Shown here: in pieces, positions 1 to 22,773 of the stretch
How positions within the stretch are numbered: the first letter of the stretch is position 1
Layout: every line of letters starts with the position of its first letter
Origin: Negativicutes bacterium
GTDB lineage: Bacteria > Bacillota > Negativicutes > SG130
Assembly (NCBI GenBank): GCA_963667825.1
Contig: OY764022.1
Span: 360,715-384,714, forward strand
DNA length: 24,000 bases
Reading direction: 5' to 3'
Position numbers and translations under genes: made by a program
Notes under the pieces: model-generated
What the model saw: the letters and a program-made list of their open reading frames with translations, nothing else
What the model was told of the DNA's origin: nothing
The model's database searches: none

Positions 1-1089
1 CTCCGGGTTGACGTTTTCACCGCTGATCTGAGCAAACTCTTTCAGCAACTCTTTTTGTCGGTCCGTAAGCTTTTGCGGCGTCAGCACCTTAACCCTGACG
101 TGTTGGTCGCCGCGTCCATTGCCGCGCAGAAAAGGAATCCCTTTTCCCTTCAACCGAAAGACGGTTCCCGACTGCGTCGCTTCCGGCACCTTCAGGCTAA
201 CGTTTCCATCAAGCGTCGGCACCTGGATCTCATCGCCGAGCGTTGCCTGCACAAAACTGATCGGCACTTCGCAGATGACCTCATTGCCCTCACGCGAAAA
301 CAACGCGTGTTTCTTGACATATAAATATACATACAAATCGCCGGGCGGACCACCGCGCATTCCCGCTTCCCCTTCACGCGAGATGCGTAAACGCGAGCCA
401 TTGTCAACGCCGGCCGGAACCTTAACCTTAATTTTGCGTTTCACCTTAACCTTACCGCGGCCGCTGCAGTCCTTACAAGGCGTATGCACAATGCGTCCTT
501 CGCCATGGCAGCGATCGCAAACCCGCGCATTGACCATTCGGCCAAAAGGGGTATTCTGCACGACCTGCACCTGCCCCGTTCCCTTACATTGAGGACAAGT
601 TTCCGGCTGCGTCCCCGCCGCGGCTCCAGTGCCGCTACAGGTCTTGCAATCCTCCGTCCGCGGAATTTGCACTTCTGTTTCAACGCCAAAGGCAGCCTGC
701 TCAAAAGTGATTTCCATATCAAAACGCAGGTCAGAGCCCTGCTCCGGTCCCGGTTGTCGCCGACCGCCAAAACCGCCGCCGCCGCCAAAAAACATATCGA
801 AAATATCGTTAAATCCACCGCCAAAATCGCCGCTGAATCCGCCCTGACCGCCGCCGGAGCCGTCAAAAGCGGCATGGCCAAACTGGTCGTATTGCGCGCG
901 CCGATCCGCATTAGATAGCACTTCATACGCTTCATTGATTTCTTTAAATTTTTCTTCCGCCTCTTTCGGGTTTTCGCGATTCATATCCGGATGATATTTA
1001 CGCGCCTGCTTGCGGAACGCCTTTTTTATCTCATCTTCCGAGGCGGACTTACTCACACCAAGCAATTCATAATAATCACGTTTACTCAC
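1..1089 (-). CDS. dnaJ: Molecular chaperone DnaJ (Hsp40), 3' end cut by window edge
   Basis: Absent from the ORF track because no stop lies in the window. Manual reverse-strand translation from GTG at 1089 gives [35 protein letters not shown] (J domain with HPD). This is followed by a Gly/Phe-rich linker and four CxxCxGxG zinc-finger repeats ([32 protein letters not shown]). The frame stays open to base 1 (363 codons). It lies downstream of dnaK. Confidence 0.95.
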
Positions 1090-1135: not shown

Positions 1136-1164
1136 ATAATAAGATAATATCATATTTTTAGCAA
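1136..1164 (-). promoter_or_regulatory. Candidate sigma-A type internal promoter for dnaJ
   Basis: On the minus strand: TTGCTA (1164-1159), a 17-nt spacer, then TATTAT (1141-1136), in the AT-rich dnaK-dnaJ gap downstream of the dnaK hairpin. Motif match only. Confidence 0.3.
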
Positions 1165-1182
1165 GTCGCCAGACATAAATCA

Positions 1183-1220
1183 TAAAATAAGGTTTGGCAG
1201 GGAGTATCGTCCCTGCCAAA
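1183..1220 (-). terminator. Intrinsic terminator/attenuator hairpin after dnaK
   Basis: An 11-bp perfect stem, tttggcaggga (1193-1203) / tccctgccaaa (1210-1220), with a 6-nt loop. On the minus strand it is followed by ccttatttta (a moderate U-tract). It begins 17 nt after the dnaK stop. Confidence 0.6.
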
Positions 1221-1236
1221 CGCTGCACACTATCGC

Positions 1237-3090
1237 TTATTTCTTGTCCTCATCCACTACTTTGTACTCGGCATCAACCACTTTTTCGTCTTTCTTCGTG
1301 CCCGATTCCTGGCCGTGCGCATGCGCTTCCGCGCCATGCTCAGGCTGACCTTCGGCACCTTGTTGGTTGTATACCGCGCTGGTCATTTCGTACAAAGGCT
1401 GTGTCAGCGCTTCGGTGTCCGCCTTGATTTTTTCATTGTCCGTGCCTTTTAAGCTTTCTTTCAAGGTTTCAATCCCTGCTTTGACCTTTTCAAGCAAAGC
1501 GGCATCCGCTTTATCGCCCATGTCTTTTACGGTTTTTTCCGCTTGGTAGACCAGCGAGTCTGCATTGTTTCGTACTTCTACCTCTTCTTTGCGCTTCTTG
1601 TCTTCCGCCGCATGCGCTTCGGCATCCTTGACCATACGTTCGATGTCATCCTTGTTCATGCCGCCGGAAGACGTGATCGTAATTTTCTGTTCCTTGCCGG
1701 TGCCCAGATCCTTCGCCGAAACGTGAACGATGCCGTTGGCGTCAATATCAAAGCTGACTTCGATCTTAGGAATGCCGCGCGGTGCAGGAGGGATATCATT
1801 CAACTGGAAACGGCCCAGCGTCTTGTTGTACGATGCCATTTCACGTTCGCCTTGCAGCACGTGAATGTCCACCGAAGTTTGATTGTCCGCAGCGGTCGAG
1901 AAAACCTGGCTCTTCGAGGTCGGAATCGTCGTGTTGCGTTCAATGATCTTCGTGCACACGCCGCCCAAGGTCTCAATGCCCAGCGACAGAGGCGTTACGT
2001 CAAGCAGCAAAACGTCCTTGACTTCACCGACTAATACGCCGGCTTGAATCGCTGCGCCAACCGCCACGCACTCGTCCGGATTTACGCCGCGATGCGGCTC
2101 TTTGCCCATTGCTTTTTTGATTGCTTCCTGTACCGCCGGAATTCGGGTCGAACCGCCGACCAGAATCACCTTGTCAATATCTTTCGGGCTCAGTCCCGCA
2201 TCGCTCATCGCTTGGCGAGTCGGCCCCATCGTACCTTCGACCAGGTCAGCCGTCAGTTCGTCGAATTTAGCCCGGCTCAACGTAACGTCCAAATGCTTGG
2301 GTCCCGTTTGATCTGCCGTTACGAACGGCAGGTTTATATTGGTCGTCAAAACGCCCGATAACTCGATCTTCGCTTTTTCAGCCGCTTCGCGCAAACGCTG
2401 CATTGCCATGCGATCGCCGGACAGGTCGATACCGTTTTCTTTTTTGAACTCCGCTACCAACCAGTTCATGACGCGTTCGTCGAAATCATCGCCGCCCAGT
2501 CGATTGTTGCCGCTGGTCGCTTTTACTTCGAATACGCCGTCGCCAAGTTCCAAAATAGAAACGTCGAACGTGCCGCCGCCCAAGTCGAATACCAAAATCG
2601 TATGATCTTCGCCTTTGTCCATGCCATAGGCAAGCGAAGCCGCAGTCGGTTCATTGATGATGCGCAAGACTTCAAGTCCGGCAATGACGCCGGCATCTTT
2701 CGTGGCCTGACGCTGACTGTCATTGAAATAAGCCGGAACCGTAATGACGGCTTGCGTTACCGACTCGCCCAGATACGCTTCGGCGTCGGTCTTCAGTTTC
2801 TGCAGAATCATCGCGGAAATTTCCGGCGCACTATATCCCTTACCTTCAATTGTCACTTTATAGTCGGTTCCCATGTGGCGTTTGATCGAGCTGACAGTAC
2901 CATCGGTGTTAGAAACTGCTTGACGCTTCGCCAGCTGGCCAACCAGGCGTTCGCCGGTTTTCGAAAAACCGACAACGGACGGAGTGATGCGGCTGCCTTC
3001 CGCATTAGCGATAACAACCGGCTCGCCGCCTTCCATCACCGCTACGCAGGAATTCGTCGTTCCCAAATCTATACCAATTACTTTACCCAT
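1237..3090 (-). CDS. dnaK: Molecular chaperone DnaK (Hsp70)
   Basis: [18 protein letters not shown]..., [10 protein letters not shown] and VGGSTRIP are Hsp70 signatures. The track ORF starts at 3096 (MNMGK), but the SD GAGGAGG (3104-3098) is only 1 nt from that ATG and 7 nt from the ATG at 3090, so 3090 is preferred. Confidence 0.97.
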
Positions 3091-3159
3091 GTTCATTCCT
3101 CCTCAAAATTAAGCCTATGTATTTTGAACAGTTTTTGCAGACTGTCAACCGCCTTATTC

Positions 3160-3726
3160 TTAGCCTACCACTTTTACCATGCTCGGACGGATCACTTTGC
3201 CGGCTACGGCATAGCCTTTCTGGAACTCTTCCAGAATGATCCCCGCTTCCTGGCTCTCATCGGCAACCTGCATAACGGCTTCATGCTTTTGCGGGTCAAA
3301 AGCGGTTCCCACGGCTTCCACCGGAGTCAATCCCGCTTTTTCAAGCGTCTGCGCCAATTGACGGTAGATCATCTCGATTCCCGTCAACAGGTTGGCAGCA
3401 TCCTGATTGCCTGCCGCCGCCATCGCTCTTTCAAAATTATCAACGACCGGCAAGAGATCTAAAATCAGATTTTGCGTCACAAAAGCTGACATTTCCTCTT
3501 TTTCCTGTCTTGTCCGGCGACGAAAATTTTCAAAATCCGCTTGCAGGCGTTTATAGTGATTCACTTGTTCATCAAGCAAACGTTGTTTTTCAGCGACCTC
3601 CAGCGTCAGTTCTTCAACGCCCGAATCAATCTTTTCTTCAACTGCCGCCTGTTGTTCATCCACTAAACCAACTGTTTCTTCCATCGCTTTCGCTTCTTCC
3701 ATTTTCTTTTTTGTCAACTGTTCCAC
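3160..3726 (-). CDS. grpE: Nucleotide exchange factor GrpE
   Basis: Size is ~188 aa. The central coiled-coil region contains RLQADFENFRRRT (GrpE hallmark), and the C-terminal part has FDP..HEA and a beta-domain. It sits immediately upstream of dnaK. The start is uncertain: GTG 3726, TTG 3717 (better spacing to GAGGTG) or ATG 3702. Confidence 0.93.
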   Translation of the reverse strand: MEQLTKKKMEEAKAMEETVGLVDEQQAAVEEKIDSGVEELTLEVAEKQRLLDEQVNHYKRLQADFENFRRRTRQEKEEMSAFVTQNLILDLLPVVDNFERAMAAAGNQDAANLLTGIEMIYRQLAQTLEKAGLTPVEAVGTAFDPQKHEAVMQVADESQEAGIILEEFQKGYAVAGKVIRPSMVKVVG

Positions 3727-3768: not shown

Positions 3769-5358
3769 TCAGAAATCCGGCATACCGGACTCCGCATTCG
3801 GAGCCGGATTCGCTCCGGAAGTCTCATCTCGCTTCTTGATGATGGTGTCGATACGCAAGATCGCGATCGCCACCTCACCGGCCGCCTTAATCGCATGCAA
3901 TTTCACCAGCGCCGGGTCAACGACGCCATTTTCCAGCATATCGACGACCACCCCGCTGTCGCAGTCGATGCCAAGAGAATCCTTCTGCTGTTCAAGCTGC
4001 GCCAGCACGACTTCTTCGACTTTCTCCAGCGGATTATAGCCTGCATTTTCAACAATCTGCTCCAGCGGGCAGCGCAGCGCACTGGCCACACAATCGACGC
4101 CGTAAGTAGACATGCCTTTCAGACCGTCACGACTAGCCGCCACTTCACGGCTAATGGCAATTTCAAGCGAACCGCCGCCAGGCACATAACCGCCTTTTAT
4201 CGCCGCCTGAACGCTCGATGCCGCATCTTTGGCGATCCGTTCCCGTTCTCCGACGACCTCTGCCGTCGATGCGCCGACCAGAATCGTCGCCATCGGTTTT
4301 CCCGAACCGCCCAGCAGGCGGATATGATTGAGCTTTTCATCTTCAAATATCGCATCGGCCATGCCTAGATATCTTGCAATATCGCAGGCGTCTTTCTTTA
4401 AGCCAGTTCGCTTGATCATCCTTGCGCCAACATGCTCCGCCGCCCGACGTAAATCTTTGTTTGCAACGCGCTGCACGACAAGAATGCCGGCATCCGCCAA
4501 CAATTCGTCCGCCGAATCATGCACGCCGCGATCCACCAAAACCACTTTGACGCCCAGCTCGATAATCTTTTGCAGATTGGTTTTAAACTCATCTTGCAGA
4601 TCCACATAGCGTTTAAATCCGGCTTCGGTGCTGAGCGCTTCGCCGCCGATTTCTTCCGGCTCGAGCGCATCGTCAATGACCAGCACCTTCGCTTGCGTCA
4701 CCCGTTTCGGCATTTCCTGGTTCATCCGCTCGCGGTCGACAATGACGCCCATAAAGACCTCATTCGCAGCGCCTTCCTGCGCAATAATCGTATCCGAGAG
4801 CTTAAAATGATCTTCCGCCAACTTATCGCGGCCGATCAATTCCGCCGCTTTAACGACAAGTTCCGCAATGTCTTGATATTCGCGCCCGGCAATCATCGCA
4901 ACATTATGCAAAACCGGCTCCGTCAAATCGTGTACCTGACGCGAGCGCGCCTTGACTTGCTCGAGCGCCTTGGCCACGCCGTAGCGAACCCCTTCAATCA
5001 CTTTCGCAACCGGCACGCCGCGTAAGACCTGATTGACGCCTTCAGAAACCAGACCGCCGGCCATGATCGTCGCCGTAGTCGTTCCGTCACCGACTTCCGC
5101 CTGTTGCGCCTTGGCGATATTAATCAACATCTTGGCCGCCGGATGGTTCACATCCATCTTGTCGAGGATCGTAACGCCGTCATTGGTAATAACGACTTCG
5201 CCAAACCGATCCACCAGCATCGTATCCAAGCCTTTAGGGCCGATCGTTCCTTCCACAGCCGCCGTAATCGCGCGGACCGCATTCGCATTCGTCAGTAGAG
5301 CCGCCATACGTTCATCTACGTCGGCGCCGCCCCCTGCCTGTTTCAGGTTCACGGACAT
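3769..5358 (-). CDS. Thermosome/CCT-like (group II / 'group III' archaeal-type) chaperonin, Cpn60/TCP-1 family
   Basis: The 529-aa ORF carries group II-type signatures: GPKGLDTML (thermosome GPKGxDKML), ITNDGVTIL (GroEL has TKDGVTVA), [13 protein letters not shown] (ATP-binding GDGTT), GYVPGGGS (VPGGG), and an apical-domain insertion [29 protein letters not shown] at the position of the built-in lid. There is no GGM C-terminal repeat and no groES-like ORF next to it. The ATG at 5358 is only 10 nt after the hrcA stop, with AGGAGGG between them. Confidence 0.9.
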
Positions 5359-5368
5359 CCCTCCTTGC

Positions 5369-6406
5369 TTATGCTTTATAATCCTTTAGCATTTCTTCCA
5401 AATGCGTATGCACATAATCCATGATCGACATGATTTTTCCATAATCCATCCGTGTCGGACCAAGAACCGCCACCGAGCCGACTACCTGTCCGCCAATGCG
5501 GTATGTAGCCTGCACCATGCTGCAATCCTGGATGCCGCGGTAACTGTTTTCTTCACCGATGGTAACCACTACGCCGCTGTCCGTTTCTTGCTGACGCTGC
5601 TGCAACAAATCGCAGAGAAGAGGTTCTTCTTCCAACATGTCAAGCAACGTTCGCACCTTCTCGAGGTTACGAAACTCGGGCTGATTCAAAAGCTGCGTCG
5701 TCCCGCCCAGATAGACGCGGTCTTGTTTTTCGCCACGCAGCGCTTGTCGGATAACCTTCATCGCGTCATCAACGACCTTGGCCTCCGCCAGCAGATCTTC
5801 CTTAATTTCACGCAGGATCGAGGATTCAATTTGCTCGAGTGAAAGACCCGACAGCCTTTGGTTCATCATATTGGCCAAGCGCTGCAAGTCTTCGACCCGC
5901 ATACCTTGCGGCAAATCAATCACTTTGTTTTCAACCATGCCGGTATCGGTAACAATCAGTAAGATGGCCCTCGTCTCATCAAACGGCATAAACTGTAAAT
6001 ACTTAAAGTTGCATTGCCCAAACTGCGGCGCCAGAACTAAGGATATGTTTCGCGTCATGCGCGACAATAAGCGCGCGGTTTCTTGAAACACCTCATCCAG
6101 TCGTCTCGCCTTCGCCTGATACCAGTTTTTGACCAGCGTGACTTCCTTATCTGATATTTGCGTCGGCGCCAGCAGCGAATCGACATAGAAGCGATAGCCC
6201 TTACCGGAAGGAATCCGGCCTGAAGAGGTGTGCAACTGCTCGAGGTAACCCAATAGTTCCAAGTCAGCCATTTCGTTGCGGATCGTAGCCGGGCTGACGC
6301 CCAAATCATACTTTCGCGCAATGGTCCGTGAGCCGATGGGTTCTGCCGTAGAAATATAATCATCTACAATCGCATGCAAAATGATTTTTTTTCGTTTATC
6401 CAGCAT
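5369..6406 (-). CDS. hrcA: Heat-inducible transcription repressor HrcA
   Basis: [33 protein letters not shown]... is a winged-helix N-terminus typical of HrcA. Size is 345 aa. SD GGAGGTG lies 7 nt upstream. A perfect CIRCE operator sits in its 5' leader. It has the canonical first position in the hrcA-grpE-dnaK operon. Confidence 0.95.
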
Positions 6407-6425: not shown

Positions 6426-6452
6426 TTAGCACTCTTCGTTATAGAGTGCTAA
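6426..6452 (-). promoter_or_regulatory. CIRCE operator (HrcA binding site)
   Basis: TTAGCACTC-ttcgttata-GAGTGCTAA is a perfect match to the CIRCE consensus TTAGCACTC-N9-GAGTGCTAA. It lies between the candidate promoter and the hrcA SD. Confidence 0.95.
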
Positions 6453-6463
6453 CACCTACTAAC

Positions 6464-6492
6464 AAAATACCACTCCAGCCCGCCGCTGTCAA
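6464..6492 (-). promoter_or_regulatory. Sigma-A type promoter of the hrcA heat-shock operon
   Basis: On the minus strand: TTGACA (6492-6487), a 17-nt spacer, then TATTTT (6469-6464), directly upstream of CIRCE. Confidence 0.6.
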
Positions 6493-7719: not shown

Positions 7720-9516
7720 TCAGTCAACCCGTAAAATCGCCATGAAGGCTTCCTGAGGCACTTCAACGTTCCCCACTTGCTTCATTCGTTTCTTACCTTC
7801 TTTTTGCTTCTCGAGCAATTTGCGTTTGCGGCTGATATCGCCGCCATAGCATTTGGCAAGTACGTCCTTGCGCATCGCGCGCACCGTTTCCCTTGCAATG
7901 ACCTTGTTGCCAATCGCAGCTTGGATCGGCACTTCAAACATTTGCCGCGGAATAATTTCTTTCAGCTTTTCCGCCAACAAGCGTCCACGATACTGTGCCT
8001 TATCCTGATGCACGATAATCGACAGCGCATCCACCGGTTCGCTGTTAAGCAGGATATCCATCTTCACCAATTTTGAAGTCCGATAACCAATCACTTCATA
8101 GTCAAGCGATGCATAGCCGCGCGAAGATGACTTTAAGCGGTCAAAATAATCATAAATGATCTCGCTGAGCGGAATGTGATAGGTCAACGTTACGCGGTTC
8201 ACATCGAGATATTTCATGTCCTGGAATTCACCGCGTTTTTCTTGCGACAGTTCCATGACGACGCCGACGTAATCCTTAGGAACGATGATCGATGCATTAA
8301 CATAAGGCTCTTCAATATGATCGACGACTTGCGGTGCCGGCAAATGCGACGGATTGTCAAGCGTCAGTTCTTCGCCGTTCGTCTTGAAGACGCGATAAAT
8401 TACATTCGGCGCAGTAGTTATGAGATTCATGCCGTATTCGCGTTCGAGGCGTTCTTGGATGACTTCCATATGCAATAAGCCAAGGAAACCGCAGCGGAAA
8501 CCAAAGCCAAGCGCAACCGATGTTTCCGGTTCAAAGACCAGTGATGCATCATTAAGTTTCAGTTTCTCCAGCGCATCGCGCAGCAGGTCATATTCGCTGT
8601 TTTCCACCGGATAGAGACCGCAATAGACCATCGGAGTTATCTTCCGATAACCAGGCAACGGCTCGAGCGCCGGATTTTCAAGTTCCGTAATCGTATCGCC
8701 GACCCGCACGTCTTTGACGTTCTTGATGCTGGCGACAACAAACCCGACATGACCCGGTCCGAGTTCCGGCACAGTCGTCATATAGGGCTTGAACACCCCG
8801 ACTTCGGTCACTTCCACCTTTTTGTCGGTCGCCATCATATGGATCTTCATCCCGGGGCGAATCACACCATCCATGACGCGCACATAGGCAATGACGCCTT
8901 TATACGCATCAAAATGCGAATCAAAGATCAGCGCGCGCAAAGACGCCGTCTCGCTGCCGACTGGCGGCGGGACCTTCTTGACAATGGCCTCTAAGACTTC
9001 TTCGATGCCGATGCCTGCTTTTGCACTGGTCAGCACCGCATCTGACGTATCGAGACCGATCACGTCTTCCACTTCCTGCTTTACCCGCTCCGGCTCCGCG
9101 CTCGGCAGATCGATCTTATTAATGACCGGAATAATTTCCAGGTCATTTTCCAACGCCAGATACACATTGGCCAGCGTCTGCGCCTCAATGCCCTGCGCCG
9201 CGTCGACGACCAGCAAGGCACCTTCGCAGGCAGCCAAGCTGCGCGATACTTCATAAGTAAAATCGACATGCCCCGGAGTATCGATCAGATTCAATAAATA
9301 GGTATTGCCGTCTTTCGCCTTATAATCGAGACGAACCGCCTGCGCTTTGATCGTAATGCCGCGTTCGCGTTCAAGATCCATCTGATCCAGCACCTGGTTC
9401 TCCATTTCCCGCGCCGTCAATGCGCCGGTATATTCGAGCAAACGGTCGGCAAGCGTTGATTTGCCATGATCTATATGTGCAATGATTGAAAAGTTTCTAA
9501 TATATTCGGTAGTCAT
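7720..9516 (-). CDS. lepA: Translation elongation factor 4 (LepA / EF4)
   Basis: [25 protein letters not shown] (G1 AHxDHGKST), DTPGHVDF (G3) and NKID (G4), with a LepA-specific C-terminal domain. The true start is the ATG at 9516, with GGAAGGGAG upstream. This gives 598 aa, whereas the 728-aa track ORF is an upstream open-frame artefact. Confidence 0.95.
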
Positions 9517-9560
9517 ATAAACTCCCTTCCTTGGCTTAACGTTGCTCTTGATTATATCAC

Positions 9561-9590
9561 CAGGCGACGCCGGGCCGCAATAGTTACAAA
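9561..9590 (-). promoter_or_regulatory. Candidate extended -10 promoter for lepA
   Basis: On the minus strand: TTGCGG (9590-9585), an 18-nt spacer, then TGaTATAAT (-10 at 9566-9561). Confidence 0.4.
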
Positions 9591-9618
9591 GCCACGCAAC
9601 AAAATTATCACTATCCTC

Positions 9619-9647
9619 TTGCAATTTTTGTCTGGTCATGCTAAAAT
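9619..9647 (+). promoter_or_regulatory. Candidate sigma-A promoter for rpsT
   Basis: TTGCAA (9619-9624), a 17-nt spacer, then TAAAAT (9642-9647), about 35 nt upstream of the rpsT start. Confidence 0.55.
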
Positions 9648-9682
9648 TCTCTAGGTAAAAGGTCTTTAAGGAGGTGAACGAG

Positions 9683-9949
9683 TTGCCGAATATTAAATCA
9701 TCAGAACGCAGTGTAAAAACCGATGCTGAGCGTCGCGCCAGAAATTTCGCAGTTAGATCGACGATCCGTACGTATTCCCGTAAGGTAGTTGAGGCAGTGG
9801 ATGCTGGCAGTGCGGATGAGGCCAAAGTCCTCCTGACTAAAGCCAGCAGTGTTATTGACAAAGCCGTCGCTAAAGGCGTTATCCATAAAAACACCGCCGC
9901 TCGCAAAAAAGCCCGCTTAGCACACCATGTAAATACGGTTGCGAAGTAA
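9683..9949 (+). CDS. rpsT: 30S ribosomal protein S20
   Basis: (L)[20 protein letters not shown]...[13 protein letters not shown] is typical of S20. A TTG start at 9683 sits 8 nt after AAGGAGG (9668-9674) and gives 88 aa. The GTG at 9674 in the track overlaps the SD. Confidence 0.93.
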
Positions 9950-10082: not shown

Positions 10083-11096
10083 TTATACCCTGCGGCAAAG
10101 ACGAATGATGATGCCTTCAAGAACCGCCGCATCGGCGCGCCCCGACTTAAGCGCCCAGTCCGCATCGCTTAATTCCTGAAACGCAGCCCGCAACGCCTTA
10201 GCGGAAAACCCCTTCGACTGCACCGCCATTTTTTCTGCAATAAATGGCGCCACACCAAGTTTCGGGCCTAACTCGCGCGCACCAATCCCTCTTTGCAAAT
10301 ATTCCTTGGCTTGCCAAAGCTGCCTTACCTGGCGAGCCAGCAAGCCGAGGAAACGCAACGGGTGTTCGCCTGCGCGAAACTGATCTTGCAGCAGTTCAAG
10401 CGCTTTCGCCGCTTTTCGCTGATTCATCGCATCCATGATCGCAAAGACCGACGTTTCCGGCAGCGTTCCTAGAACGGCGGTTGCCGCCTCGAGATTCGCT
10501 TGTTTCTTAGGATGTACATATAAGAAAACCTTATCCAATTCATTTTCAAGCAATTCCTGCGACAGTTGGGGCATCTGCCCGAATATCGAGAGAAACCATT
10601 CCTGCGCATCGCCTGTCATCGTGCAGGCGCGCTCGCGTAACGCTTGCTGCAGCCAGGCGCGCAAGTCTTTCGCCTTAAGCGGCGAAAATTCAACGATCCG
10701 GCCGTTTTTTTCCACCGCCTTATACCAGCGGCGACGCTTATCGACGCCGTCTGCGCCGACAATCAGCAAACAGGCATATTCGGGAATATTTGCCAATAAT
10801 GCAAGCAGAGCTTCCTCTTCCGCCTTTTCTTTACTTTGCCAGCCTTTGCCGCTGCGCAGAACAATTACCTGGCGCTGACCGAAAAACGGCGCCGTCTCTA
10901 CGCTGCGCACCAGCTCCCCGACTGACACCTCCTGCTCAAAGATCAAGAGATTCATCTGCCGGTCTTCCGGCGGCAACAAGGCTTCCACTAATGTCTGCTC
11001 GGCTTTTCGCAGCCAATATAAATCGTCGCCATGCAACAGATACAACCGTCCCAGTGGCTCCTGCATCAATTGTTTCACCGTATCCTTCGCGCTCAT
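10083..11096 (-). CDS. holA: DNA polymerase III delta subunit
   Basis: Size is 337 aa. The N-terminus LYLLHGDDLYWLRKAEQTL is typical of HolA, and the C-terminal domain is helical. It sits between comEC and rpsT exactly as B. subtilis holA (yqeN). The assignment rests on family resemblance plus synteny. Confidence 0.85.
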   Translation of the reverse strand: MSAKDTVKQLMQEPLGRLYLLHGDDLYWLRKAEQTLVEALLPPEDRQMNLLIFEQEVSVGELVRSVETAPFFGQRQVIVLRSGKGWQSKEKAEEEALLALLANIPEYACLLIVGADGVDKRRRWYKAVEKNGRIVEFSPLKAKDLRAWLQQALRERACTMTGDAQEWFLSIFGQMPQLSQELLENELDKVFLYVHPKKQANLEAATAVLGTLPETSVFAIMDAMNQRKAAKALELLQDQFRAGEHPLRFLGLLARQVRQLWQAKEYLQRGIGARELGPKLGVAPFIAEKMAVQSKGFSAKALRAAFQELSDADWALKSGRADAAVLEGIIIRLCRRV

Positions 11097-11157
11097 TCCA
11101 GCCTCCCTGTGCGATTCTCCCTTCCTTATTGTACCCGATTCAATACATAAAGCAAAG

Positions 11158-13473
11158 CTATCCGCCGTTCTGCCGTTTCCACTCCCAAGGATTATCCGCT
11201 GACTCTCGCCATGTCTTCACCGATAAGTTCTCTCCGTCGGTGCTAAATACGATCGCCCCGCTCACATCGGTGCGGTACACGCTGACCCCAGCTTTTTGCA
11301 AGCGTCGCAGCGCCTCTGGATGAGGATGACCATACGAATTTCCCGCGCCGACCGATATTGCCGCACAAATCGGCTGCACCAACGCCAAGAATTCTTCACT
11401 CGTCGCTTTTGCCGCGCCGTGATGACCAACCTTGAGCACCGTACTCTTTAGCAACTCACCCTTTTCTTTCACTAAGGCGGCCTCACTTTTCCCTTCTAAA
11501 TCACCCGTGAAAAGAAAACTCTGTTTACCATATTGGATCCTTAGCACAGCCGATCCTTCATTTCCTGTTCCGTTTTCAAAATCTCCCGCCGCCAATATCT
11601 CGACGTCAACGCCATCCATCTTCAAGCGCTGACCTTGTCGCAAAAAAATCGGCGGCCGATCGCTCAAACGAATTGCCTGCATCACCGGCGGCGTCGCAGG
11701 CCCGCTCGGCAGAAGAAGTTGCTCAACCTTTATGCCCTCGACGATCGCCGGCGCTCCGCCCGCGTGATCGTCGTGTTCATGGCTCAAAATCAGGTAATCC
11801 AGTTTATAAACGCCCTGATGCTTTAGATAAGGAAGCACAACTCTCTTGCCGACTTCTCCTGCGCCGCCTTGTCCTGCATCGATCAGCACGCCTCTTCCCG
11901 CTGGCGTTTTAAGCAATATGGCCTCGCCTTGTCCGACATCAATCATATGCACTTCCAATACGCCCGCCGACGGCGCATACAATATCGCAAGCAGTAAAAC
12001 GGTCAACAGCATTCCCGCCTGCTTTCTCCATGGACGCCACGCCAAAGGCCACCAAGGCAGACTCAACAAGAGGAAGTAAACACTCCCTGCGGCAAGCCCA
12101 AATGGCGGCAACGGCAGCGTGGCGCCGGGCATCTGCGCCAATATTTTTGCGGCAGAAAAGGCAAGAGAAAAAACAAAACTAGCCAAGACAAAGGCCATTT
12201 TACCCGCCAGAAAAAAACTTCCGCCAAGCAGCGCCCCTGCAAGACCTATCATCATAACGATCTCCAACATGGGCGCGACGATGAGATTCGCCGGCAGACT
12301 CGCCATGGATAAACTTTTAAAGTACCAGGCTAAAAACGGCAGCGAACCAAGTTGTGCGCCGACCGTCACGGCCAGTATTCCGGCCACGCTTTCAGGCAAC
12401 CAGGCGCTGCCTGCTTTTTGTAACGGTTTGTTGAAAGCCAGCAACCCCAGCGTTGCGGCAAAACTCAATTGAAAACTGATATCCCAGAGCAGCGGCGGTT
12501 CATAAAGAAGCAACCCGCCTGCCGCAAGACAAAGCGCCGCCCAGGCGTCTTTATCGCGTCCGCTGCAAAGTGCCCCGAGCGCAATCCAGCCCATCAACAA
12601 CGCCCGAGCTACCGGCGAAGAGAAACCGCACACAAATCCATAGGCAAGTGAAATCATAACCGCCGCTGCGGCAGCCGCTCCGTTCGGCATGATATGCCTC
12701 GCCAAACAAAAGACCACGCCGATTAGCAATGCGACATGCGTACCAGAAACCGATAAAATATGAATTAGTCCGGTCGTCGAGAAGACACGTAACCACTCCG
12801 ATGGAATTCCGCCGGCGCCGCCAAATAGCAAGCCTTCCAGCACAGACGCTTCGCTTCCCGGCATCGAAAGAGTCAACAAGGTTCGTATTTTTTGTCGCCA
12901 GATATTGGCACGGCTCGACCAGTCTTCTTTCGCATCGAGCAGCGATACTTGTTGCCAATCCGAAACCGTAAAACGATAACGACTGCCGGCACTCCAAGCT
13001 TGTCCAGGATTGTGATAGCGCGTCCCGGCTGCCAGCTTGCCTGCAAGCGATATTTTCTGCCCCGTTTTAATTTCCCGCTGTCCCTCGATCGGCAAATAGC
13101 ACTGTACCGTCTCCCGCGTCAAAACACGATCGACCGTTTCCAGCGCAAGAAGCAGGCGCAGCCTTTCCTCCCCGCGTATTCCGCCGCTCACCACGGCAGG
13201 GCCGTCCTGCACGCGACCGGATAGGACAACCGTCCTGCCGAGTGCAGCAAACATCGGATCCGGCTTTTCTTCGATTTGTCCGGCCCGCAACACCGCCAGA
13301 CAAAGCCAAAACAAAGCCAGACTCACGCCAAACCGTTTCGCACCGCTCGAACGCGGCCAAAAAAGCAGCAGCAACGACGCAACCAGCAATCCCGACAACC
13401 AACTGCGCATCGCCTCGTGACACCAGATTCCGATGCAGATAAAGATAACCCAAACAGCTAGCCAGTGCGTCAT
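11158..13473 (-). CDS. comEC: DNA internalization-related competence protein ComEC/Rec2
   Basis: 771 aa. It has an N-terminal TM plus OB-like region, a polytopic competence domain, and a C-terminal metallo-beta-lactamase domain with LSHEHDDHAGG (HxHxDH). Its start overlaps the comEA stop (ATGA at 13470-13473). Confidence 0.92.
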   Translation of the reverse strand: MTHWLAVWVIFICIGIWCHEAMRSWLSGLLVASLLLLFWPRSSGAKRFGVSLALFWLCLAVLRAGQIEEKPDPMFAALGRTVVLSGRVQDGPAVVSGGIRGEERLRLLLALETVDRVLTRETVQCYLPIEGQREIKTGQKISLAGKLAAGTRYHNPGQAWSAGSRYRFTVSDWQQVSLLDAKEDWSSRANIWRQKIRTLLTLSMPGSEASVLEGLLFGGAGGIPSEWLRVFSTTGLIHILSVSGTHVALLIGVVFCLARHIMPNGAAAAAAVMISLAYGFVCGFSSPVARALLMGWIALGALCSGRDKDAWAALCLAAGGLLLYEPPLLWDISFQLSFAATLGLLAFNKPLQKAGSAWLPESVAGILAVTVGAQLGSLPFLAWYFKSLSMASLPANLIVAPMLEIVMMIGLAGALLGGSFFLAGKMAFVLASFVFSLAFSAAKILAQMPGATLPLPPFGLAAGSVYFLLLSLPWWPLAWRPWRKQAGMLLTVLLLAILYAPSAGVLEVHMIDVGQGEAILLKTPAGRGVLIDAGQGGAGEVGKRVVLPYLKHQGVYKLDYLILSHEHDDHAGGAPAIVEGIKVEQLLLPSGPATPPVMQAIRLSDRPPIFLRQGQRLKMDGVDVEILAAGDFENGTGNEGSAVLRIQYGKQSFLFTGDLEGKSEAALVKEKGELLKSTVLKVGHHGAAKATSEEFLALVQPICAAISVGAGNSYGHPHPEALRRLQKAGVSVYRTDVSGAIVFSTDGENLSVKTWRESADNPWEWKRQNGG

Positions 13474-14033
13474 AATGAAATCTTGTCTTTTATTTTCTCA
13501 AATTTAGCTTCGCCAATCCCATTTACTTTTTTCAAGTCTTCCAGATTACGAAACCCGCCATGATTATTTCGGTATTCAATGATTCGTTCCGCCATCGCCG
13601 CTCCGACGCCGGGTAATTGATCAAGTTCCTGCTTGCCAGCTGAATTAATGTTTATTTTATTGCCTCTTCCCTGTCCATCAAGGACAGGACTCTTACCAAC
13701 CGTCTCCGCTGTCACTTTATTCTGCGCAGGCACAAGAATCTGCATGCCGTCTTTCACCGCCTGCGCCATATTGATTTTTGACGCATCCGCTTCCGGGCTC
13801 AACCCTCCGGCTGCATTGATCGCGTCTATGATTCTCAAACCGCCGGAAATTTTCACCACGCCAGGATGATTCACAGCACCACTGACATAAATGACATTCA
13901 GTTCGCTTTGCGGCAGGGCATTTTCTCCCACCTGCGGCAGCGTCTTACGCGTCCCATTGTATAGACTGATGCCTAAAATCGCGCAGCCCACCAAAAAGGC
14001 CGCTATCCAACGCCGTTTTTCGTTCTTTTCCAC
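13470..14033 (-). CDS. comEA: Competence protein ComEA (membrane-anchored dsDNA receptor, helix-hairpin-helix)
   Basis: It has an N-terminal TM helix (WIAAFLVGCAILGISL), an SLBB-like middle region, and a C-terminal tandem HhH (LDQLPGVGAAMAERII...VNGIGEAKFEKI). The GTG at 14033 lies 7 nt after GGAGG and is preferred over the TTG at 14048 used by the track. Confidence 0.88.
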   Translation of the reverse strand: MEKNEKRRWIAAFLVGCAILGISLYNGTRKTLPQVGENALPQSELNVIYVSGAVNHPGVVKISGGLRIIDAINAAGGLSPEADASKINMAQAVKDGMQILVPAQNKVTAETVGKSPVLDGQGRGNKININSAGKQELDQLPGVGAAMAERIIEYRNNHGGFRNLEDLKKVNGIGEAKFEKIKDKISL

Positions 14034-14123
14034 GTTTTCACCTCCCAATATCTGGCTTCGCTATTTTTCTTCCATTTCCTGTATTTTAGACAATAAAACA
14101 GATTTTTTTTACACTTTGACAAA

Positions 14124-14159: not shown

Positions 14160-16640
14160 TTATTTCACTACGATATTGACCAGTTTTTTCGGAACACAAA
14201 TGACCTTGATCACTTGCCGTCCCTCAATCAAGGCCGTCACTTTATCTTGCGCCAGCGCTTTCTCTTCCATTTCTGCCGGCGTGAGTCCGGAAGCAATAAC
14301 GAGCTTGTCCTTGACCTTGCCGTTGATCTGCAGCACAATCTCCACCTCTTCCAAAACCAGAGCCGCTTCCTCATAAGCAGGCCACTTTTGCTTGTGTACG
14401 CTGCCCTCGCCAATCGTCTCTTGCCATAATTCCTCTGCAATATGGGGCGCAAACGGCGCTATCAGTCGGATCAATGCACTGACCGCTTCGCGCGCTAATG
14501 CCGGACTCACGGCATCAGCCACTTCTTTCGTCGCATACATCGCATTGACCAATTCCATAATGGAGCTGATTGCCGTATTGAAATTGAAACGTTCGCCGAC
14601 ATCTTCGCCGACTTTCTTGATACTGGCATGCAAAATCCGGCGCAATTCCTTGGCTTCTTTCGCCAAGCCGTCGACTTCGACCGCCTCATCTTCCGGCGAC
14701 ATGAACACCGCATAATGTTCCACGATTCTCCACAAACGATTCAAAAAACGGTAAGCCCCTTCGACCCCTTGATCGCTCCATTCCAAATCACGTTCCGGCG
14801 GCGCGGCAAACATGATGAATAAACGAGCCGTATCGGCGCCGTATTTGCTGATGATTTCTTCCGGCGACACCACATTGCCTTTTGATTTTGACATCTTAGC
14901 GCCGTCTTTTGTAACCATGCCCTGCGTCAATAAGTTCTTAAACGGTTCATTGACATTAATCAGCCCGGCATCCTTAAGCACCTTCGTAAAGAAGCGTGAA
15001 TACAGCAAATGTAGTATCGCATGCTCAATGCCGCCGATATATTGATCCACCGGCAGCCAGTAATTGGCCTTGTCGATATTGAAAGGTTCCACCGTATTAT
15101 GCGGATCGGTATAGCGCATGTAATACCATGACGAACAGATAAAGGTATCCATCGTATCCGTTTCACGCCGCGCCTGGCCGCCGCATTTCGGGCAGGCGCA
15201 GTTGAGGAATTCTTCCGCTTGCGCCAGCGGCGATACCGAACCGCCGTTGAAATTGATGTTCTCCGGCAACAAAACCGGCAGCTCCTCTTTCGGTACCGGA
15301 ACCGTTCCGCAGGTCGGGCAATAGAGGATGGGAATCGGCGCGCCCCAATAGCGTTGCCGCGATACAAGCCAATCGCGCAGACGATAGTTGACGCGCAACT
15401 GACCGATCCCCAATTCTTCAAATTTGCGTGCGATTGCGTTTTTACCCGCCTCATTGTCCAAACCGCTGAATTCGCCGGAGTTGACTATAATCCCATCGCC
15501 GTCATAAGCGCCGTTCATTTCTGCCAGGTTAAACTCCTGCCCTTTCGGTTGAACAACGATCTTTTTTGCCAACTGATACTTGTCGGCAAAAATCCAGTCG
15601 CGTTCATCGTGCGCCGGAACGCCCATGACCGCACCCGTCCCGTATTCGTACAACACATAATTAGCCACCCAAATCGGCACCTGTTCACCAGTCAGCGGAT
15701 GTTTTGCATACGATCCGGTGAACATGCCTTCTTTTTCCACTTCGGTGGATGTACGGCTGATCTCACTCATTTTGCGGACGCGCGCGACAAACTCCTTGAC
15801 TGCCTGCGCCTGCTCCTTGCCCTCGATCAAACGTTGCACCATCGGATGCTCCGGTGCAAGAACGATGTAACTGACGCCGAAGACCGTGTCCTGACGCGTC
15901 GTATAAACAGGAATCCGTTCATCCAGTTCCGGTACGGCAAAAGAAAACTCCGCGCCTTCACTGCGACCGATCCAATTTTCCTGCATCGTCTTGACGCGTT
16001 CCGGCCATCCTTTGAGTTCACTCAAATCTTCCAGCAAACGATCGGCATAATCGGTAATCTTGAAAAACCATTGCTCCAGATCTTTCTTAATAACCACCGA
16101 GTCGCAGCGCCAACAGCAACCGTCAACGACCTGTTCATTGGCCAATACGGTATTGCATTGGTCACACCAATTGACCGCAGCTTTTTTCTTATAGGCCAAG
16201 CCCATTTCATAAAACTGCAGAAACAGCCACTGCGTCCAGCGATAATATTCCGGGTGACAGGTCGCGACTTCGCGGTCCCAGTCATAGGAAAGCCCTAATT
16301 CCTGTTGTTGGCGCCGCATGTTGGCTATATTCTCATCCGTCCATTTAGCCGGATGAACGCCATGCTTAATTGCGGCATTTTCAGCCGGCATCCCAAAAGC
16401 ATCCCAGCCCATCGGATGTAAGACATTATAGCCCTGCATCGTCTTAAAACGGGCAATGACGTCGCCGATCGAATAATTGCGTACATGCCCCATATGCAAA
16501 TTCCCGGACGGATACGGGAACATTTCCAGCACATAATATTCGGGACGCTGCCGGTTCAAATCCGTTTTATAAGCCTCTTCTTCAGACCACTTGCGCTGCC
16601 ACTTCGCTTCAATTTCTTGCGGTGCATATTTTTCCTTCAT
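14160..16640 (-). CDS. leuS: Leucyl-tRNA synthetase
   Basis: 826 aa. It has [15 protein letters not shown] (HIGH motif), KMSKSKGN (KMSKS) and a CP1 editing domain, and it is preceded by a Leu-specific T-box leader. Confidence 0.97.
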
Positions 16641-16681: not shown

Positions 16682-16917
16682 GAAAAACAAAAAACGCCCC
16701 TGGCTTAGCGCCAGGGACGAGTTAAACCCGCGATACCACCCTGTTTGACGACTCACGTCGTCCTCTTCATTTAACCAATAACGCCGTCACGCGGCAACGA
16801 TTACTTGCTTCACCGTCGCTCCTCCACAGCGAGTTCAACCGTTTAGGGGATTGGCTCGCATCGCCCGCCAACTTTCTGCACCCGCTACTACGATCTACTG
16901 TTCTGCATCTAAGGATT
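16682..16917 (-). promoter_or_regulatory. T-box riboswitch leader (tRNA-Leu responsive) of leuS
   Basis: On the minus strand the T-box sequence is AGGGUGGUAUCGCGGG (16742-16727). A terminator hairpin follows (16695-16719; ccctggc/gccaggg stem), then UUUUUUGUUUUU. The candidate specifier is GAA-CUC-G (CUC = Leu, plus-strand gag at 16831-16833), followed by a CUGU helix that can pair with an upstream ACAG. The UGGU bulge fits a discriminator A73, as in tRNA-Leu. Confidence 0.85.
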
Positions 16918-16923
16918 TCTTAT

Positions 16924-19160: not shown

Positions 19161-19172
19161 AATCCAACCCCC

Positions 19173-22129: not shown

Positions 22130-22135
22130 AAAGCA

Positions 22136-22762: not shown

Positions 22763-22773
22763 ATTCCGTCTCC

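What the first reader, a model, noticed from the sequence alone, without database searches (positions are those of the whole stretch)
3769..5358. Archaeal-type (group II/III) chaperonin inserted into the bacterial hrcA-grpE-dnaK-dnaJ operon
The canonical Firmicute heat-shock operon hrcA-grpE-dnaK-dnaJ is interrupted between hrcA and grpE by a 529-aa Cpn60/TCP-1 protein. Its diagnostic motifs are thermosome/CCT-like rather than GroEL-like. These are [30 protein letters not shown], an apical insertion where the built-in lid sits, and no GGM tail. No groES partner is adjacent. The gene starts 10 nt after the hrcA stop with its SD in that gap. No terminator is visible in the 42-nt gap before grpE, so it should be co-transcribed and co-regulated with Hsp70 components. 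From memory, a small 'group III' chaperonin clade located in dnaK operons was described in Carboxydothermus hydrogenoformans and a few other Firmicutes. The class is therefore known but rare and barely characterised, including its substrates, lid mechanism and interplay with DnaK/GrpE. By eye, composition matches the neighbouring genes, which suggests an old, domesticated acquisition rather than a recent island.
Basis: partly seen in the sequence, partly recalled or inferred. Interest (0 to 1): 0.7.

Follow-up and report, generated by a model that had tools for sequence, protein, structure and literature searches.

The report
Known Group III chaperonin in dnaK operon

Summary
On the minus strand the window reads promoter, perfect CIRCE operator, hrcA, a Cpn60/TCP-1 gene, grpE, dnaK and dnaJ (cut by the window edge).

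The protein is a Group III chaperonin, not Group I or II:
- It scores 663 bits to the resurrected Group III ancestor (PDB 9RWQ) and 468 bits to the Carboxydothermus prototype (5X9U). The best real thermosome scores 245 bits and the GroEL models at most 178.
- It groups with Ch-CPN, excluding thermosomes, in 99 of 100 bootstraps.
- It has the Group III signatures: a nucleotide-sensing loop 6 residues shorter with the compensating Arg, a lid 4 residues shorter made of two helices, and an intact catalytic Asp and GDGTT motif.
- Its AlphaFold model best matches 5X9V/5X9U.

In 56 Negativicutes genomes the order hrcA-cpn-grpE-dnaK is never broken, and all 55 loci that include the hrcA upstream region have one perfect CIRCE there.

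The closest named relative, from Thermosinus carboxydivorans (77% identity), is listed as Group III in An et al. 2017.

Corrections: the real start is probably the GTG at 5352 (527 aa), and the class is neither very rare nor uncharacterised.

One small extra: the Negativicutes subclade has a conserved C-terminal [M/L]PDF tip.

Verdict: already known, low interest.

The parts
6464..6492 (-). Sigma-A-type promoter-like site (TTGACA, 17 nt, TATTTT, with TG before the second hexamer) upstream of the operon
   Evidence: 10 of 12 matches, the best in the scanned region. It sits just upstream of CIRCE. This is a consensus match only; it has not been shown to be used.
6426..6452 (.). CIRCE operator (HrcA binding site), TTAGCACTC-N9-GAGTGCTAA, with no mismatches
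   Evidence: one match in the window, none in 100 shuffles; one perfect CIRCE at the equivalent position upstream of hrcA in all 55 related loci that include that region.
5369..6406 (-). hrcA, heat-inducible transcriptional repressor (345 aa)
   Evidence: PF01628 at E 4e-69; TIGR00331 at 352 bits (cutoff 197).
3769..5352 (-). cpn, Group III chaperonin.
   Evidence: Start codon: (the printed homologue N-termini contain MNLKQ; the Shine-Dalgarno spacing favours the GTG).
3772..3783 (-). Codons for the C-terminal M-P-D-F tip, at the end of a disordered Gly/Ala/Ser/Asn-rich linker of about 15 residues
   Evidence: 89 of the 120 closest clusters end in xPD[F/Y] or LPEF, and 21 of 120 end in LT[Q/K]F. 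The more distant Group III members lack it. The tail is predicted disordered, pLDDT below 50 for residues 503-527.
3160..3726 (-). grpE, nucleotide exchange factor (188 aa from the GTG at 3726; the TTG at 3717 is an alternative start)
   Evidence: PF01025 at E 5.7e-47; NF010738 at 181 bits (cutoff 137). Junction sequence.
1237..3096 (-). dnaK, Hsp70 (619 aa)
   Evidence: PF00012 at E 2e-253; NF001413 at 990 bits (cutoff 648).
1192..1221 (-). Terminator-like hairpin (12 pairs, 7 of them G-C, then CTTATTTTAT) between dnaK and dnaJ
   Evidence: Likely a partial terminator or transcript-stabilising element. A promoter-like site follows at 1136-1164.
1..1089 (-). dnaJ, starting at the GTG at 1089 and truncated by the window edge (363 aa visible)
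   Evidence: translation ([12 protein letters not shown]..., Gly/Phe-rich region, CxxCxGxG zinc-finger repeats); dnaJ follows dnaK in the related loci.

Best explanation
The gene encodes a functional Group III chaperonin, the bacterial thermosome-like class whose prototype is Carboxydothermus hydrogenoformans Ch-CPN. The host is a Sporomusaceae (Negativicutes) bacterium identical or very close to Azotosporobacter soli.

Shown here:
- It belongs to the Group III clade by sequence, tree, indel signatures, key residues and predicted fold.
- Its ATP-site residues are intact.
- It is the second gene of a CIRCE/HrcA-controlled operon, hrcA-cpn-grpE-dnaK-dnaJ, and this layout is invariant across 56 Negativicutes genomes.

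Inferred from the solved homologue (PMC5635000):
- Sixteen identical subunits form two stacked 8-membered rings.
- ATP binding moves the stem loop, which levers the neighbouring subunit's C-terminal strand and rotates the subunits inward.
- The two-helix built-in lid then closes the chamber without GroES.
- Because the nucleotide-sensing loop is absent and an Arg contacts the gamma-phosphate, closure is essentially non-cooperative.

Inferred from the sequence context:
- At normal temperature HrcA bound to CIRCE represses the operon.
- Protein-unfolding stress relieves HrcA, and the chaperonin is made from the same transcript as GrpE and DnaK, and at least partly DnaJ.
- It therefore acts as an extra heat-shock folding chamber alongside the Hsp70 system and the cell's GroEL/ES.
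For: Sequence scores:
- PDB search: 662.8 bits to 9RWQ and 467.6 bits to 5X9U (Ch-CPN), against 288 to the ancestral Group II protein and 245 to the best real thermosome. 9RWQ is the ancestral Group III protein ACIII according to PMC12696368.
- NCBIfam: thermosome models score about 311 bits, below their cutoffs of 400-671; GroEL models score at most 178 bits, below 352-582.

Tree: in an NJ tree of 124 sequences rooted on E. coli GroEL, the common ancestor of the window protein and Ch-CPN excludes the thermosome and ACII in 99 of 100 bootstraps.

Signatures:
- The nucleotide-sensing-loop segment is 21 residues in all 50 sequences on the Group III side, against 24-29 in all 73 on the Group II side.
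- The lid segment is 36 residues in 48 of 50, against 38-45.
- Arg sits at the Ch-R155 column in 48 of 50 on the Group III side and is not among the five commonest residues on the Group II side.
- The window protein has R159, D378, L242, F248, Y251 and F258 (ATG numbering), equivalent to Ch-CPN R155, D373, L237, F243, Y246 and F253 (residues defined in PMC5635000).
- The GDGTT, NDG and PGGG motifs are invariant in 39 homologues.

Fold: the AF2 model has pLDDT 83.8. Its best Foldseek hits are 5X9V and 5X9U, 'group III chaperonin' (E 1e-48 and 1.7e-43, TM-scores 0.84-0.93), with Group II next at about 1e-35. The lid is predicted as two helices.

Context:
- A perfect CIRCE lies between a promoter-like site and hrcA.
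- No terminator-like site is found at the hrcA/cpn or cpn/grpE junctions.
- The same gene order is found in every one of 56 loci, and a perfect CIRCE in 55 of 55.
- Literature: Group III chaperonins are, with one exception, encoded in the dnaK operon (PMC5635000). T. carboxydivorans TcarDRAFT_1251 is listed as Group III, and its protein P0011 is 77% identical to the window protein.
Against: - Nothing here tests oligomeric state, ATPase activity, folding activity or heat induction for this protein. All mechanistic steps are carried over from a homologue that is 46-48% identical by alignment.
- Co-transcription is inferred only from short gaps, the absence of predicted terminators and the conserved gene order.
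- A 9-pair hairpin without a U-tract lies at the very 3' end of cpn. A promoter-like site lies between grpE and dnaK. Transcript processing or internal initiation could therefore uncouple expression levels.
- The exact membership of the Group III clade in the NJ tree is unstable (the identical clade was recovered in 1 of 100 replicates). The tree is distance-based, not maximum likelihood.
- I could not check whether this genome also carries groESL.
Confidence: 0.9

Rival explanations
1. It is an ordinary archaeal Group II thermosome gene recently transferred into this bacterium, not a member of the bacterial Group III lineage.
For: Thermosome HMMs are the best-scoring NCBIfam models (311 bits). 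Group II structures also match the predicted fold well (E about 1e-35).
Against: - The scores are below every thermosome cutoff (400-671 bits).
- It scores 468-663 bits to Group III entries against at most 288 to Group II.
- It lacks the 6-residue nucleotide-sensing-loop extension and the 4-residue lid insertion found in all 73 sequences on the Group II side.
- It separates from the thermosome in 99 of 100 bootstraps.
- Its composition matches its neighbours, and its divergence tracks dnaK, lepA, hrcA and hemW across 56 genomes (rho 0.55-0.65).
- There is no GGM tail.
Confidence: 0.02
2. It is a divergent extra GroEL (Group I) paralogue that works with GroES.
For: The family is shared (Pfam Cpn60_TCP1). 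JGI automatic names for several homologues read 'chaperonin GroEL (HSP60 family)'.
Against: - GroEL models score at most 178 bits, in two broken stretches, against cutoffs of 352-582.
- E. coli GroEL aligns only over residues 20-192, at E 8e-10.
- The lid segment is 36 residues against 16 in GroEL.
- There is no groES in the window.
- The fold search is led by chaperonins with built-in lids.
Confidence: 0.01
3. It is a decaying or non-catalytic pseudo-chaperonin kept only by its position in the operon.
For: None found.
Against: - The ORF is full length.
- All ATP-site motifs (NDG, GDGTT, PGGG, catalytic Asp, gamma-phosphate Arg) are present and invariant or nearly so in 39 homologues, with 82% mean column identity.
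- The model is confident in all three domains.
Confidence: 0.03
4. The gene is a true Group III chaperonin, but it is not expressed as part of the HrcA/CIRCE-controlled transcript. It would instead have its own promoter, or be separated by processing so that its level is uncoupled from hrcA and dnaK.
For: - There is a stable hairpin at the 3' end of cpn (-21 kcal/mol for the 101-nt stretch folded, z -1.9).
- From my own knowledge of the B. subtilis dnaK operon (Homuth et al. 1997, 1999; not re-read here), the hrcA/grpE junction is a processing site that lowers hrcA mRNA relative to grpE-dnaK.
Against: - Only 16 nt (10 from the ATG) separate the hrcA stop from the cpn start, and the Shine-Dalgarno sequence lies in that gap.
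- No promoter-like site is found immediately upstream of cpn, and no terminator-like site at either junction.
- There is one CIRCE per locus, always upstream of hrcA.
- The gene order is invariant.
- Processing would alter stoichiometry but not the HrcA control of synthesis.
Confidence: 0.1

Closest known systems
Carboxydothermus hydrogenoformans Ch-CPN (Group III chaperonin; PDB 5X9U open, 5X9V closed; An et al. 2017, PMC5635000; Techtmann & Robb 2010)
   Same: - Same clade, and an essentially gap-free alignment over residues 11-511 (467.6 bits).
- Same short gamma-phosphate loop with Arg, the same two-helix lid with the L/F/Y/F hydrophobic tip, and the same catalytic Asp.
- Best structural match.
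- Same placement in the dnaK operon.
   Different: - Identity is 46-48% by alignment.
- The host is a Sporomusaceae bacterium (Negativicutes, a diderm class) rather than a thermophilic Carboxydothermus; its growth temperature was not checked here.
- The C-terminal tail differs: Ch-CPN-like P0131 ends ...EQEDGGKR, while this subclade ends in a Gly/Ala/Ser linker plus [M/L]PDF.
Thermosinus carboxydivorans TcarDRAFT_1251 (A1HR08), listed as Group III in An et al. 2017
   Same: - Closest named relative (P0011, 77% identity, 529 aa).
- Same class, Negativicutes.
- Ends in the same ...GMPDF tip.
- That genome also has a Group I chaperonin, TcarDRAFT_0384.
   Different: Different genus. No functional data exist for either protein.
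[quoted passage not shown]
   Same: Highest-scoring solved chain (662.8 bits). It forms double 8-membered rings, has ATPase activity and protects client proteins from heat.
   Different: It is a reconstructed sequence, not a natural protein. The PDB molecule name reads 'ACII', but the paper assigns 9RWQ to ACIII.
Archaeal thermosomes and eukaryotic CCT (Group II)
   Same: Same three-domain fold, built-in lid, no GroES, 8-fold rings. TM-scores about 0.8.
   Different: Group II has a nucleotide-sensing loop 6 residues longer carrying a Lys, a lid 4 residues longer with a beta-strand, GGM-type tails, cooperative ATPase and prefoldin as partner. Scores are only 170-245 bits.
Class I heat-shock operon hrcA-grpE-dnaK-dnaJ of Bacillota, under CIRCE/HrcA control
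   Same: Same genes, a consensus CIRCE between the promoter and hrcA, and a hairpin between dnaK and dnaJ.
   Different: An extra chaperonin gene sits between hrcA and grpE.

Membership tests
Group III chaperonin (Ch-CPN type) | Full-length Cpn60/TCP-1 protein with equatorial, intermediate and apical domains | tested here: met
   Pfam PF00118 at E 2e-112 covering profile positions 1-489 of 490. AF2 model with pLDDT 83.8 and pTM 0.78, with all three domains confident.
Group III chaperonin (Ch-CPN type) | Forms a clade with Ch-CPN, separate from Group I and Group II | tested here: met
   Scores of 467.6 bits (5X9U) and 662.8 bits (9RWQ, ACIII) against at most 288 bits for Group II. In the NJ tree the common ancestor of the window protein and Ch-CPN excludes the thermosome and ACII in 99 of 100 bootstraps. 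Caveat: the tree is distance-based and the inner branching is unstable.
Group III chaperonin (Ch-CPN type) | No nucleotide-sensing loop (alpha6-alpha7 loop 6 residues shorter than in Group II), with an Arg (Ch-CPN R155) contacting the gamma-phosphate | tested here: met
   The segment is 21 residues against 27 in thermosomes, and R159 aligns with Ch-R155. Across 123 sequences the length separates the two sides perfectly, and Arg is present in 48 of 50 on the Group III side. Feature defined in PMC5635000.
Group III chaperonin (Ch-CPN type) | Built-in lid of two helices, 4 residues shorter than in Group II, with conserved hydrophobic tip residues (Ch-CPN L237, F243, Y246, F253) | tested here: met
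   The lid segment is 36 residues against 40. L242, F248, Y251 and F258 are present. The model predicts helices 237-240 and 243-265 (527-aa numbering) and no strand.
Group III chaperonin (Ch-CPN type) | Intact catalytic and ATP-binding residues (Ch-CPN D373; GDGTT; NDG) | tested here: met
   D378 aligns with Ch-D373. D58, D89, G88-T93 and D376 (527-aa numbering) are invariant in 39 homologues.
Group III chaperonin (Ch-CPN type) | Encoded inside the dnaK (Hsp70) operon | tested here: met
   The order is hrcA-cpn-grpE-dnaK-dnaJ in the window and in all 56 related loci as far as each contig reaches. Literature statement.
Group III chaperonin (Ch-CPN type) | Homo-hexadecamer (two 8-membered rings) with non-cooperative ATPase (Hill coefficient about 1) | not testable with these tools
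   Known only for Ch-CPN and ACIII. It needs purified protein.
Group III chaperonin (Ch-CPN type) | Occurs in addition to a canonical GroEL/ES in the same genome | not tested
   There is no groES or groEL in the 24-kb window, and the rest of the genome could not be searched. It is true for T. carboxydivorans (TcarDRAFT_0384) and is stated as the general rule in PMC5220055.
Group II chaperonin (thermosome/CCT) | Reaches the curated thermosome or CCT model cutoffs | tested here: not met
   About 311 bits against cutoffs of 400 (beta), 450 (alpha) and 671 (TIGR02339). All CCT models are also far below their cutoffs.
Group II chaperonin (thermosome/CCT) | Extended nucleotide-sensing loop with a conserved Lys, and a longer lid containing a strand | tested here: not met
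   The 6-residue and 4-residue deletions relative to ACII and 3J1E.
Group I chaperonin (GroEL) | Reaches the GroEL model cutoffs, has no lid, has a GGM tail and an adjacent groES | tested here: not met
   At most 178 bits against 352-582. A lid is present (36 residues against 16). The tail ends ...SGMPDF. No groES is present.
CIRCE/HrcA class I heat-shock regulon | Consensus CIRCE inverted repeat between the promoter and the first gene, with HrcA encoded | tested here: met
   A perfect TTAGCACTC-N9-GAGTGCTAA at 6426-6452, with none in 100 shuffles. A promoter-like site lies at 6464-6492. HrcA TIGR00331 scores 352 bits. The element is conserved in 55 of 55 loci.
CIRCE/HrcA class I heat-shock regulon | Heat-inducible, HrcA-dependent transcription covering the cpn gene | not testable with these tools
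   Needs RNA-seq or RT-PCR. Only the sequence-based inference is available.

The most novel reading that the evidence does not exclude
The chaperonin gene always sits directly after hrcA, the gap is only 16 nt in the window, and there is a single CIRCE per locus. It may therefore be more than an extra folding chamber working with DnaK. It could be the chaperonin that keeps HrcA active, the role GroE plays in B. subtilis, C. jejuni and Chlamydia (PMC8533110). In that case hrcA-cpn would be a self-contained stress-sensing feedback module. The Negativicutes-specific disordered tail ending in [M/L]PDF-COOH could then be a docking or cavity motif for HrcA, DnaK or clients. Nothing here tests either idea. 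Both go beyond what the Group III papers I could read propose, which is only a possible DnaK hand-off.
Probability: 0.12. Interest if true: 0.5.

Novelty: already known. Interest (0 to 1): 0.18.

Why it matters
The finding adds little. It shows that an Azotosporobacter-like Sporomusaceae genome carries the expected ortholog of a chaperonin class that has already been defined phylogenetically, structurally and biochemically.

Its modest value is as comparative material:
- The Negativicutes subclade is large. All of the 120 closest 90%-identity clusters listed are at least 70% identical to the window protein.
- Its synteny is perfectly conserved.
- It has a subclade-specific C-terminal tip motif.
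- It includes cultured Sporomusaceae genera (Sporomusa, Pelosinus).

These organisms might allow the still-open questions to be tested in vivo: the clients of Group III chaperonins, the division of labour with GroEL/ES, and hand-off from DnaK or feedback on HrcA.

Tried and rejected
- **Source genome scan.** I therefore could not check for groESL elsewhere in this genome. The organism was identified instead from the 90% cluster of the identical protein (Azotosporobacter soli).
- **Founding paper.** Techtmann & Robb 2010 (PMC2996707) is not held. Its content is cited only through later papers.
- **Is the C-terminal [M/L]PDF tip a Group III-wide feature?** No. Ch-CPN-like P0131, the 60%-identical P0122 and the other 50%-cluster representatives printed lack it.
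- **Terminator between cpn and grpE.** The scan finds none. Folding shows a 9-pair hairpin at the end of the coding region, but with no U-tract and only z = -1.9, so I do not call it a terminator.
- **Exact Group III clade.** The clade from the main NJ tree recurred in only 1 of 100 bootstraps, and ACIII sits just outside the common ancestor of the window protein and Ch-CPN. I rely only on the robust Group II/III split, not on the inner topology.
- **Ch-CPN anchor.** My Ch-CPN fragment transcribed did not match P0131 exactly. P0131 is treated only as a Ch-CPN-like cluster representative.
- **Rfam.** The only match in the window is a T-box far from the operon. No known RNA thermosensor is present in the heat-shock operon.
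Full report
**1. What is in the sequence**

All genes around the finding lie on the minus strand. Reading 5' to 3' on that strand:
- A sigma-A-type promoter-like site at 6492-6464 (TTGACA, 17 nt, TATTTT, preceded by TG; the best match in the scanned region).
- A perfect CIRCE operator, TTAGCACTC-N9-GAGTGCTAA, at 6426-6452 (one match, none in 100 shuffles; sequence).
- hrcA at 6406-5369 (TIGR00331, 352 bits against a cutoff of 197).
- The chaperonin ORF at 5358-3769.
- grpE at 3726-3160.
- dnaK at 3096-1237.
- A strong hairpin followed by a T-run at 1221-1192.
- dnaJ, from the GTG at 1089, running off the window edge.

Upstream of the operon lie hemW, lepA, holA, comEC and comEA.

There is no groES or groEL in the window.

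One correction concerns the start codon. The AAGGAGG Shine-Dalgarno sequence ends only 1 nt before the ATG at 5358 but 7 nt before the GTG at 5352. All 40 homologue N-termini printed contain MNLKQ, and 38 begin with it. The identical database protein is 527 aa. The real start is therefore most likely the GTG at 5352, 16 nt after the hrcA stop.

**2. Which chaperonin group**

*Sequence scores.*
- The Pfam Cpn60_TCP1 match is end to end (E 2e-112).
- Among the curated NCBIfam models the thermosome models score best (about 311 bits) but fall below all their cutoffs (400-671). GroEL models reach at most 178 bits, in two pieces. The protein fits neither Group I nor Group II.
- Against solved structures, the top hits are 9RWQ (662.8 bits) and 5X9U/5X9V (467.6 bits). 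The next are the ancestral Group II protein 9RWP (288 bits) and the best natural thermosome (245 bits).
- 5X9U/5X9V is the Carboxydothermus hydrogenoformans Group III chaperonin (PMC5635000). 9RWQ carries the molecule name 'ACII' in the PDB file, but the paper assigns it to ACIII, the resurrected Group III ancestor (PMC12696368).

*Indels and residues.*
- The alignment to Ch-CPN is nearly gap-free.
- The alignments to Group II show the indels that An et al. use to define Group III: six residues missing from the nucleotide-sensing loop and four from the lid.
- The functional residues named in that paper are all conserved. In ATG numbering, R159, D378, L242, F248, Y251 and F258 correspond to Ch-CPN R155, D373, L237, F243, Y246 and F253.

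*Tree.*
- I built an NJ tree from 124 sequences: the window protein, six named Negativicutes homologues, 113 full-length 50%-identity representatives from the exhaustive search, four PDB anchors, and E. coli GroEL as root.
- The common ancestor of the window protein and Ch-CPN excludes the thermosome and ACII in 99 of 100 bootstraps.
- The 50 tips on the Group III side all have the 21-residue loop segment, and 48 have the 36-residue lid segment. All 73 tips on the Group II side have 24-29 and 38-45 residues respectively.
- The gamma-phosphate Arg is present in 48 of 50 on the Group III side and is not among the five commonest residues at that column in Group II.
- The inner branching of Group III is not stable, so I use only the Group II/III split.

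*Predicted structure.*
- The AlphaFold2 model, built on 39 homologues, has pLDDT 83.8 and pTM 0.78.
- The lid is predicted as two helices, and the last 25 residues as disordered.
- The best Foldseek matches in the PDB are 5X9V_A and 5X9U_A, 'group III chaperonin' (E 1e-48 and 1.7e-43, TM-scores 0.84-0.93). Group II chaperonins come next at about 1e-35.

*Intactness.* The ATP-site motifs are invariant in the 39 homologues, so this is not a degenerate copy.

**3. Organism, distribution and history**

- The identical protein comes from a 3.75-Mb NCBI contig. Its 90% cluster includes WP_346355819.1, 'TCP-1/cpn60 chaperonin family protein [Azotosporobacter soli]'. That species is in Sporomusaceae, Negativicutes.
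- All of the closest 120 clusters are 70-88% identical. The named ones are Negativicutes: Thermosinus carboxydivorans, Lucifera, Sporomusa, Pelosinus, Dendrosporobacter and Methylomusa.
- T. carboxydivorans TcarDRAFT_1251 is explicitly listed as Group III in An et al. 2017, and the same genome has a Group I chaperonin.
- In 56 genome loci the order (lepA-hemW-)hrcA-cpn-grpE-dnaK-dnaJ has no exception, as far as each contig reaches.
- Every one of the 55 loci that include the hrcA upstream region has exactly one perfect CIRCE there.
- Chaperonin identity co-varies with that of dnaK, lepA, hrcA and hemW across the loci (Spearman rho 0.55-0.65). GC and GC3 resemble the neighbours.

**4. How it most likely works**

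*Shown here:*
- Membership in Group III.
- An intact active site.
- A position inside a CIRCE-fronted operon, with short gaps (16 nt, then 42-51 nt) and no terminator-like site at either junction.

*Inferred from Ch-CPN (PMC5635000):*
- A homo-hexadecamer of two 8-membered rings.
- ATP binding moves the stem loop, which levers the neighbouring subunit's C-terminal strand. The subunits rotate on inter-ring pivot joints, and the two-helix lids close the chamber side by side.
- There is little cooperativity, because the nucleotide-sensing loop is missing.

*Inferred from the context and the established HrcA/CIRCE model:*
- Synthesis is repressed by HrcA and released when unfolded proteins accumulate, in parallel with GrpE and DnaK.

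*Open:* whether DnaK hands clients to it is an untested proposal of the original authors.

The hairpin after dnaK, and the promoter-like sites before dnaK and dnaJ, suggest that transcript levels along the operon may differ. This resembles what I recall of the B. subtilis operon (own knowledge, not re-read).

**5. Comparison and novelty**

- The class, its defining structural features and its residence in the dnaK operon are published: Techtmann & Robb 2010 (cited through later papers), PMC5635000, PMC5220055, PMC6420498 and PMC12696368.
- In 2017, 195 members were counted. Here at least 41 full-length 50%-identity clusters carry the signatures.
- The gene itself is in a public genome under a generic family name.
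- The finding is therefore correct but already known.

**6. The one thing that seems undescribed**

- In the Negativicutes subclade the disordered tail is a variable Gly/Ala/Ser/Asn linker of about 15 residues. It ends in [M/L]PDF-COOH or close variants in 89 of the 120 closest clusters, and in LT[Q/K]F in a further 21.
- Ch-CPN-like and other more distant Group III representatives lack this tip. Archaeal Group II representatives end in GGM repeats.
- In Ch-CPN, deleting the last 16 residues lowered ATPase activity and the temperature optimum.
- The tip could be a hydrophobic cavity element analogous to GGM, or a docking motif. This was not tested.

**7. Verdict**

- Observation: confirmed.
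- Interpretation: supported, with minor corrections.
- Novelty: already known.
- Interest: low (0.18).
- The most novel reading not excluded is a feedback role on HrcA and/or a tail-mediated partner contact. I give it about 0.12 probability.

Noticed in passing
window 3772-3783 (-), the last four codons of cpn; homologues P0001-P0120: The Negativicutes Group III chaperonins end in a disordered Gly/Ala/Ser/Asn linker plus a conserved tip: [M/L/I/T/V]PD[F/Y] or LPEF-COOH in 89 of 120 clusters, and LT[Q/K]F in 21 of 120. More distant Group III members (Ch-CPN-like P0131, P0122) lack it. Group II tails are GGM repeats. The tip is not mentioned in the Group III papers I could read.
   Followed up: partly
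The GTG two codons downstream has 7-nt spacing and gives the conserved N-terminus MNLKQ, the same as the 527-aa database protein P0001.
   Followed up: yes
window 3772-3793 (-): A 9-pair hairpin (GGAGUCCGG-UAUG-CCGGAUUUC) overlaps the last codons of cpn. It has no U-tract, and the 101-nt stretch folded has z = -1.9. It could be a stabilising or processing element, or chance.
   Followed up: partly
window 1136-1221 (-) and 3121-3148 (-): A strong terminator-like hairpin (12 pairs plus a T-run) lies directly after dnaK, followed by a promoter-like site before dnaJ. Another promoter-like site (TTGACA, 16 nt, CAAAAT) lies in the grpE-dnaK gap. Together they suggest graded expression along the operon.
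   Followed up: no
window 16710-16920 (-): A T-box leader (Rfam RF00230, 128 bits, E 1.5e-28) lies upstream of leuS (14160-16640, -).
   Followed up: no
window 18435-24000 (-): A cluster resembling a membrane-bound energy-converting (group 4, Ech/Hyc/Coo-type) [NiFe] hydrogenase. It has a small subunit with a ferredoxin domain (18435-19160), a fused NuoC/NuoD-like large subunit (within 19173-21173), an antiporter-like subunit (20672-22129) and a NuoH-like subunit (22774-23643).
   Followed up: no
window 7720-9906 (-): The mechanical lepA ORF is 728 aa from a TTG, but the LepA model match begins at residue 135. The real start is probably about 130 codons downstream.
   Followed up: no
proteins P0148 (1057 aa) and P0189 (1047 aa) from the representative search: Two double-length proteins each match the chaperonin in two stretches. 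They appear to be tandem-fused chaperonins from unnamed metagenomic sources, at 28-31% identity to the query.
   Followed up: no
PDB entry 9RWQ: The molecule name in the PDB copy reads 'Ancestral Group II Chaperonin (ACII)', whereas the paper (PMC12696368) assigns 9RWQ to ACIII, the Group III ancestor. The label could mislead automated annotation.
   Followed up: yes
window 10083-14048 (-): The genes holA, comEC and comEA lie upstream of lepA-hemW. This and the lepA-hemW-hrcA arrangement are ordinary conserved Bacillota synteny.
   Followed up: no
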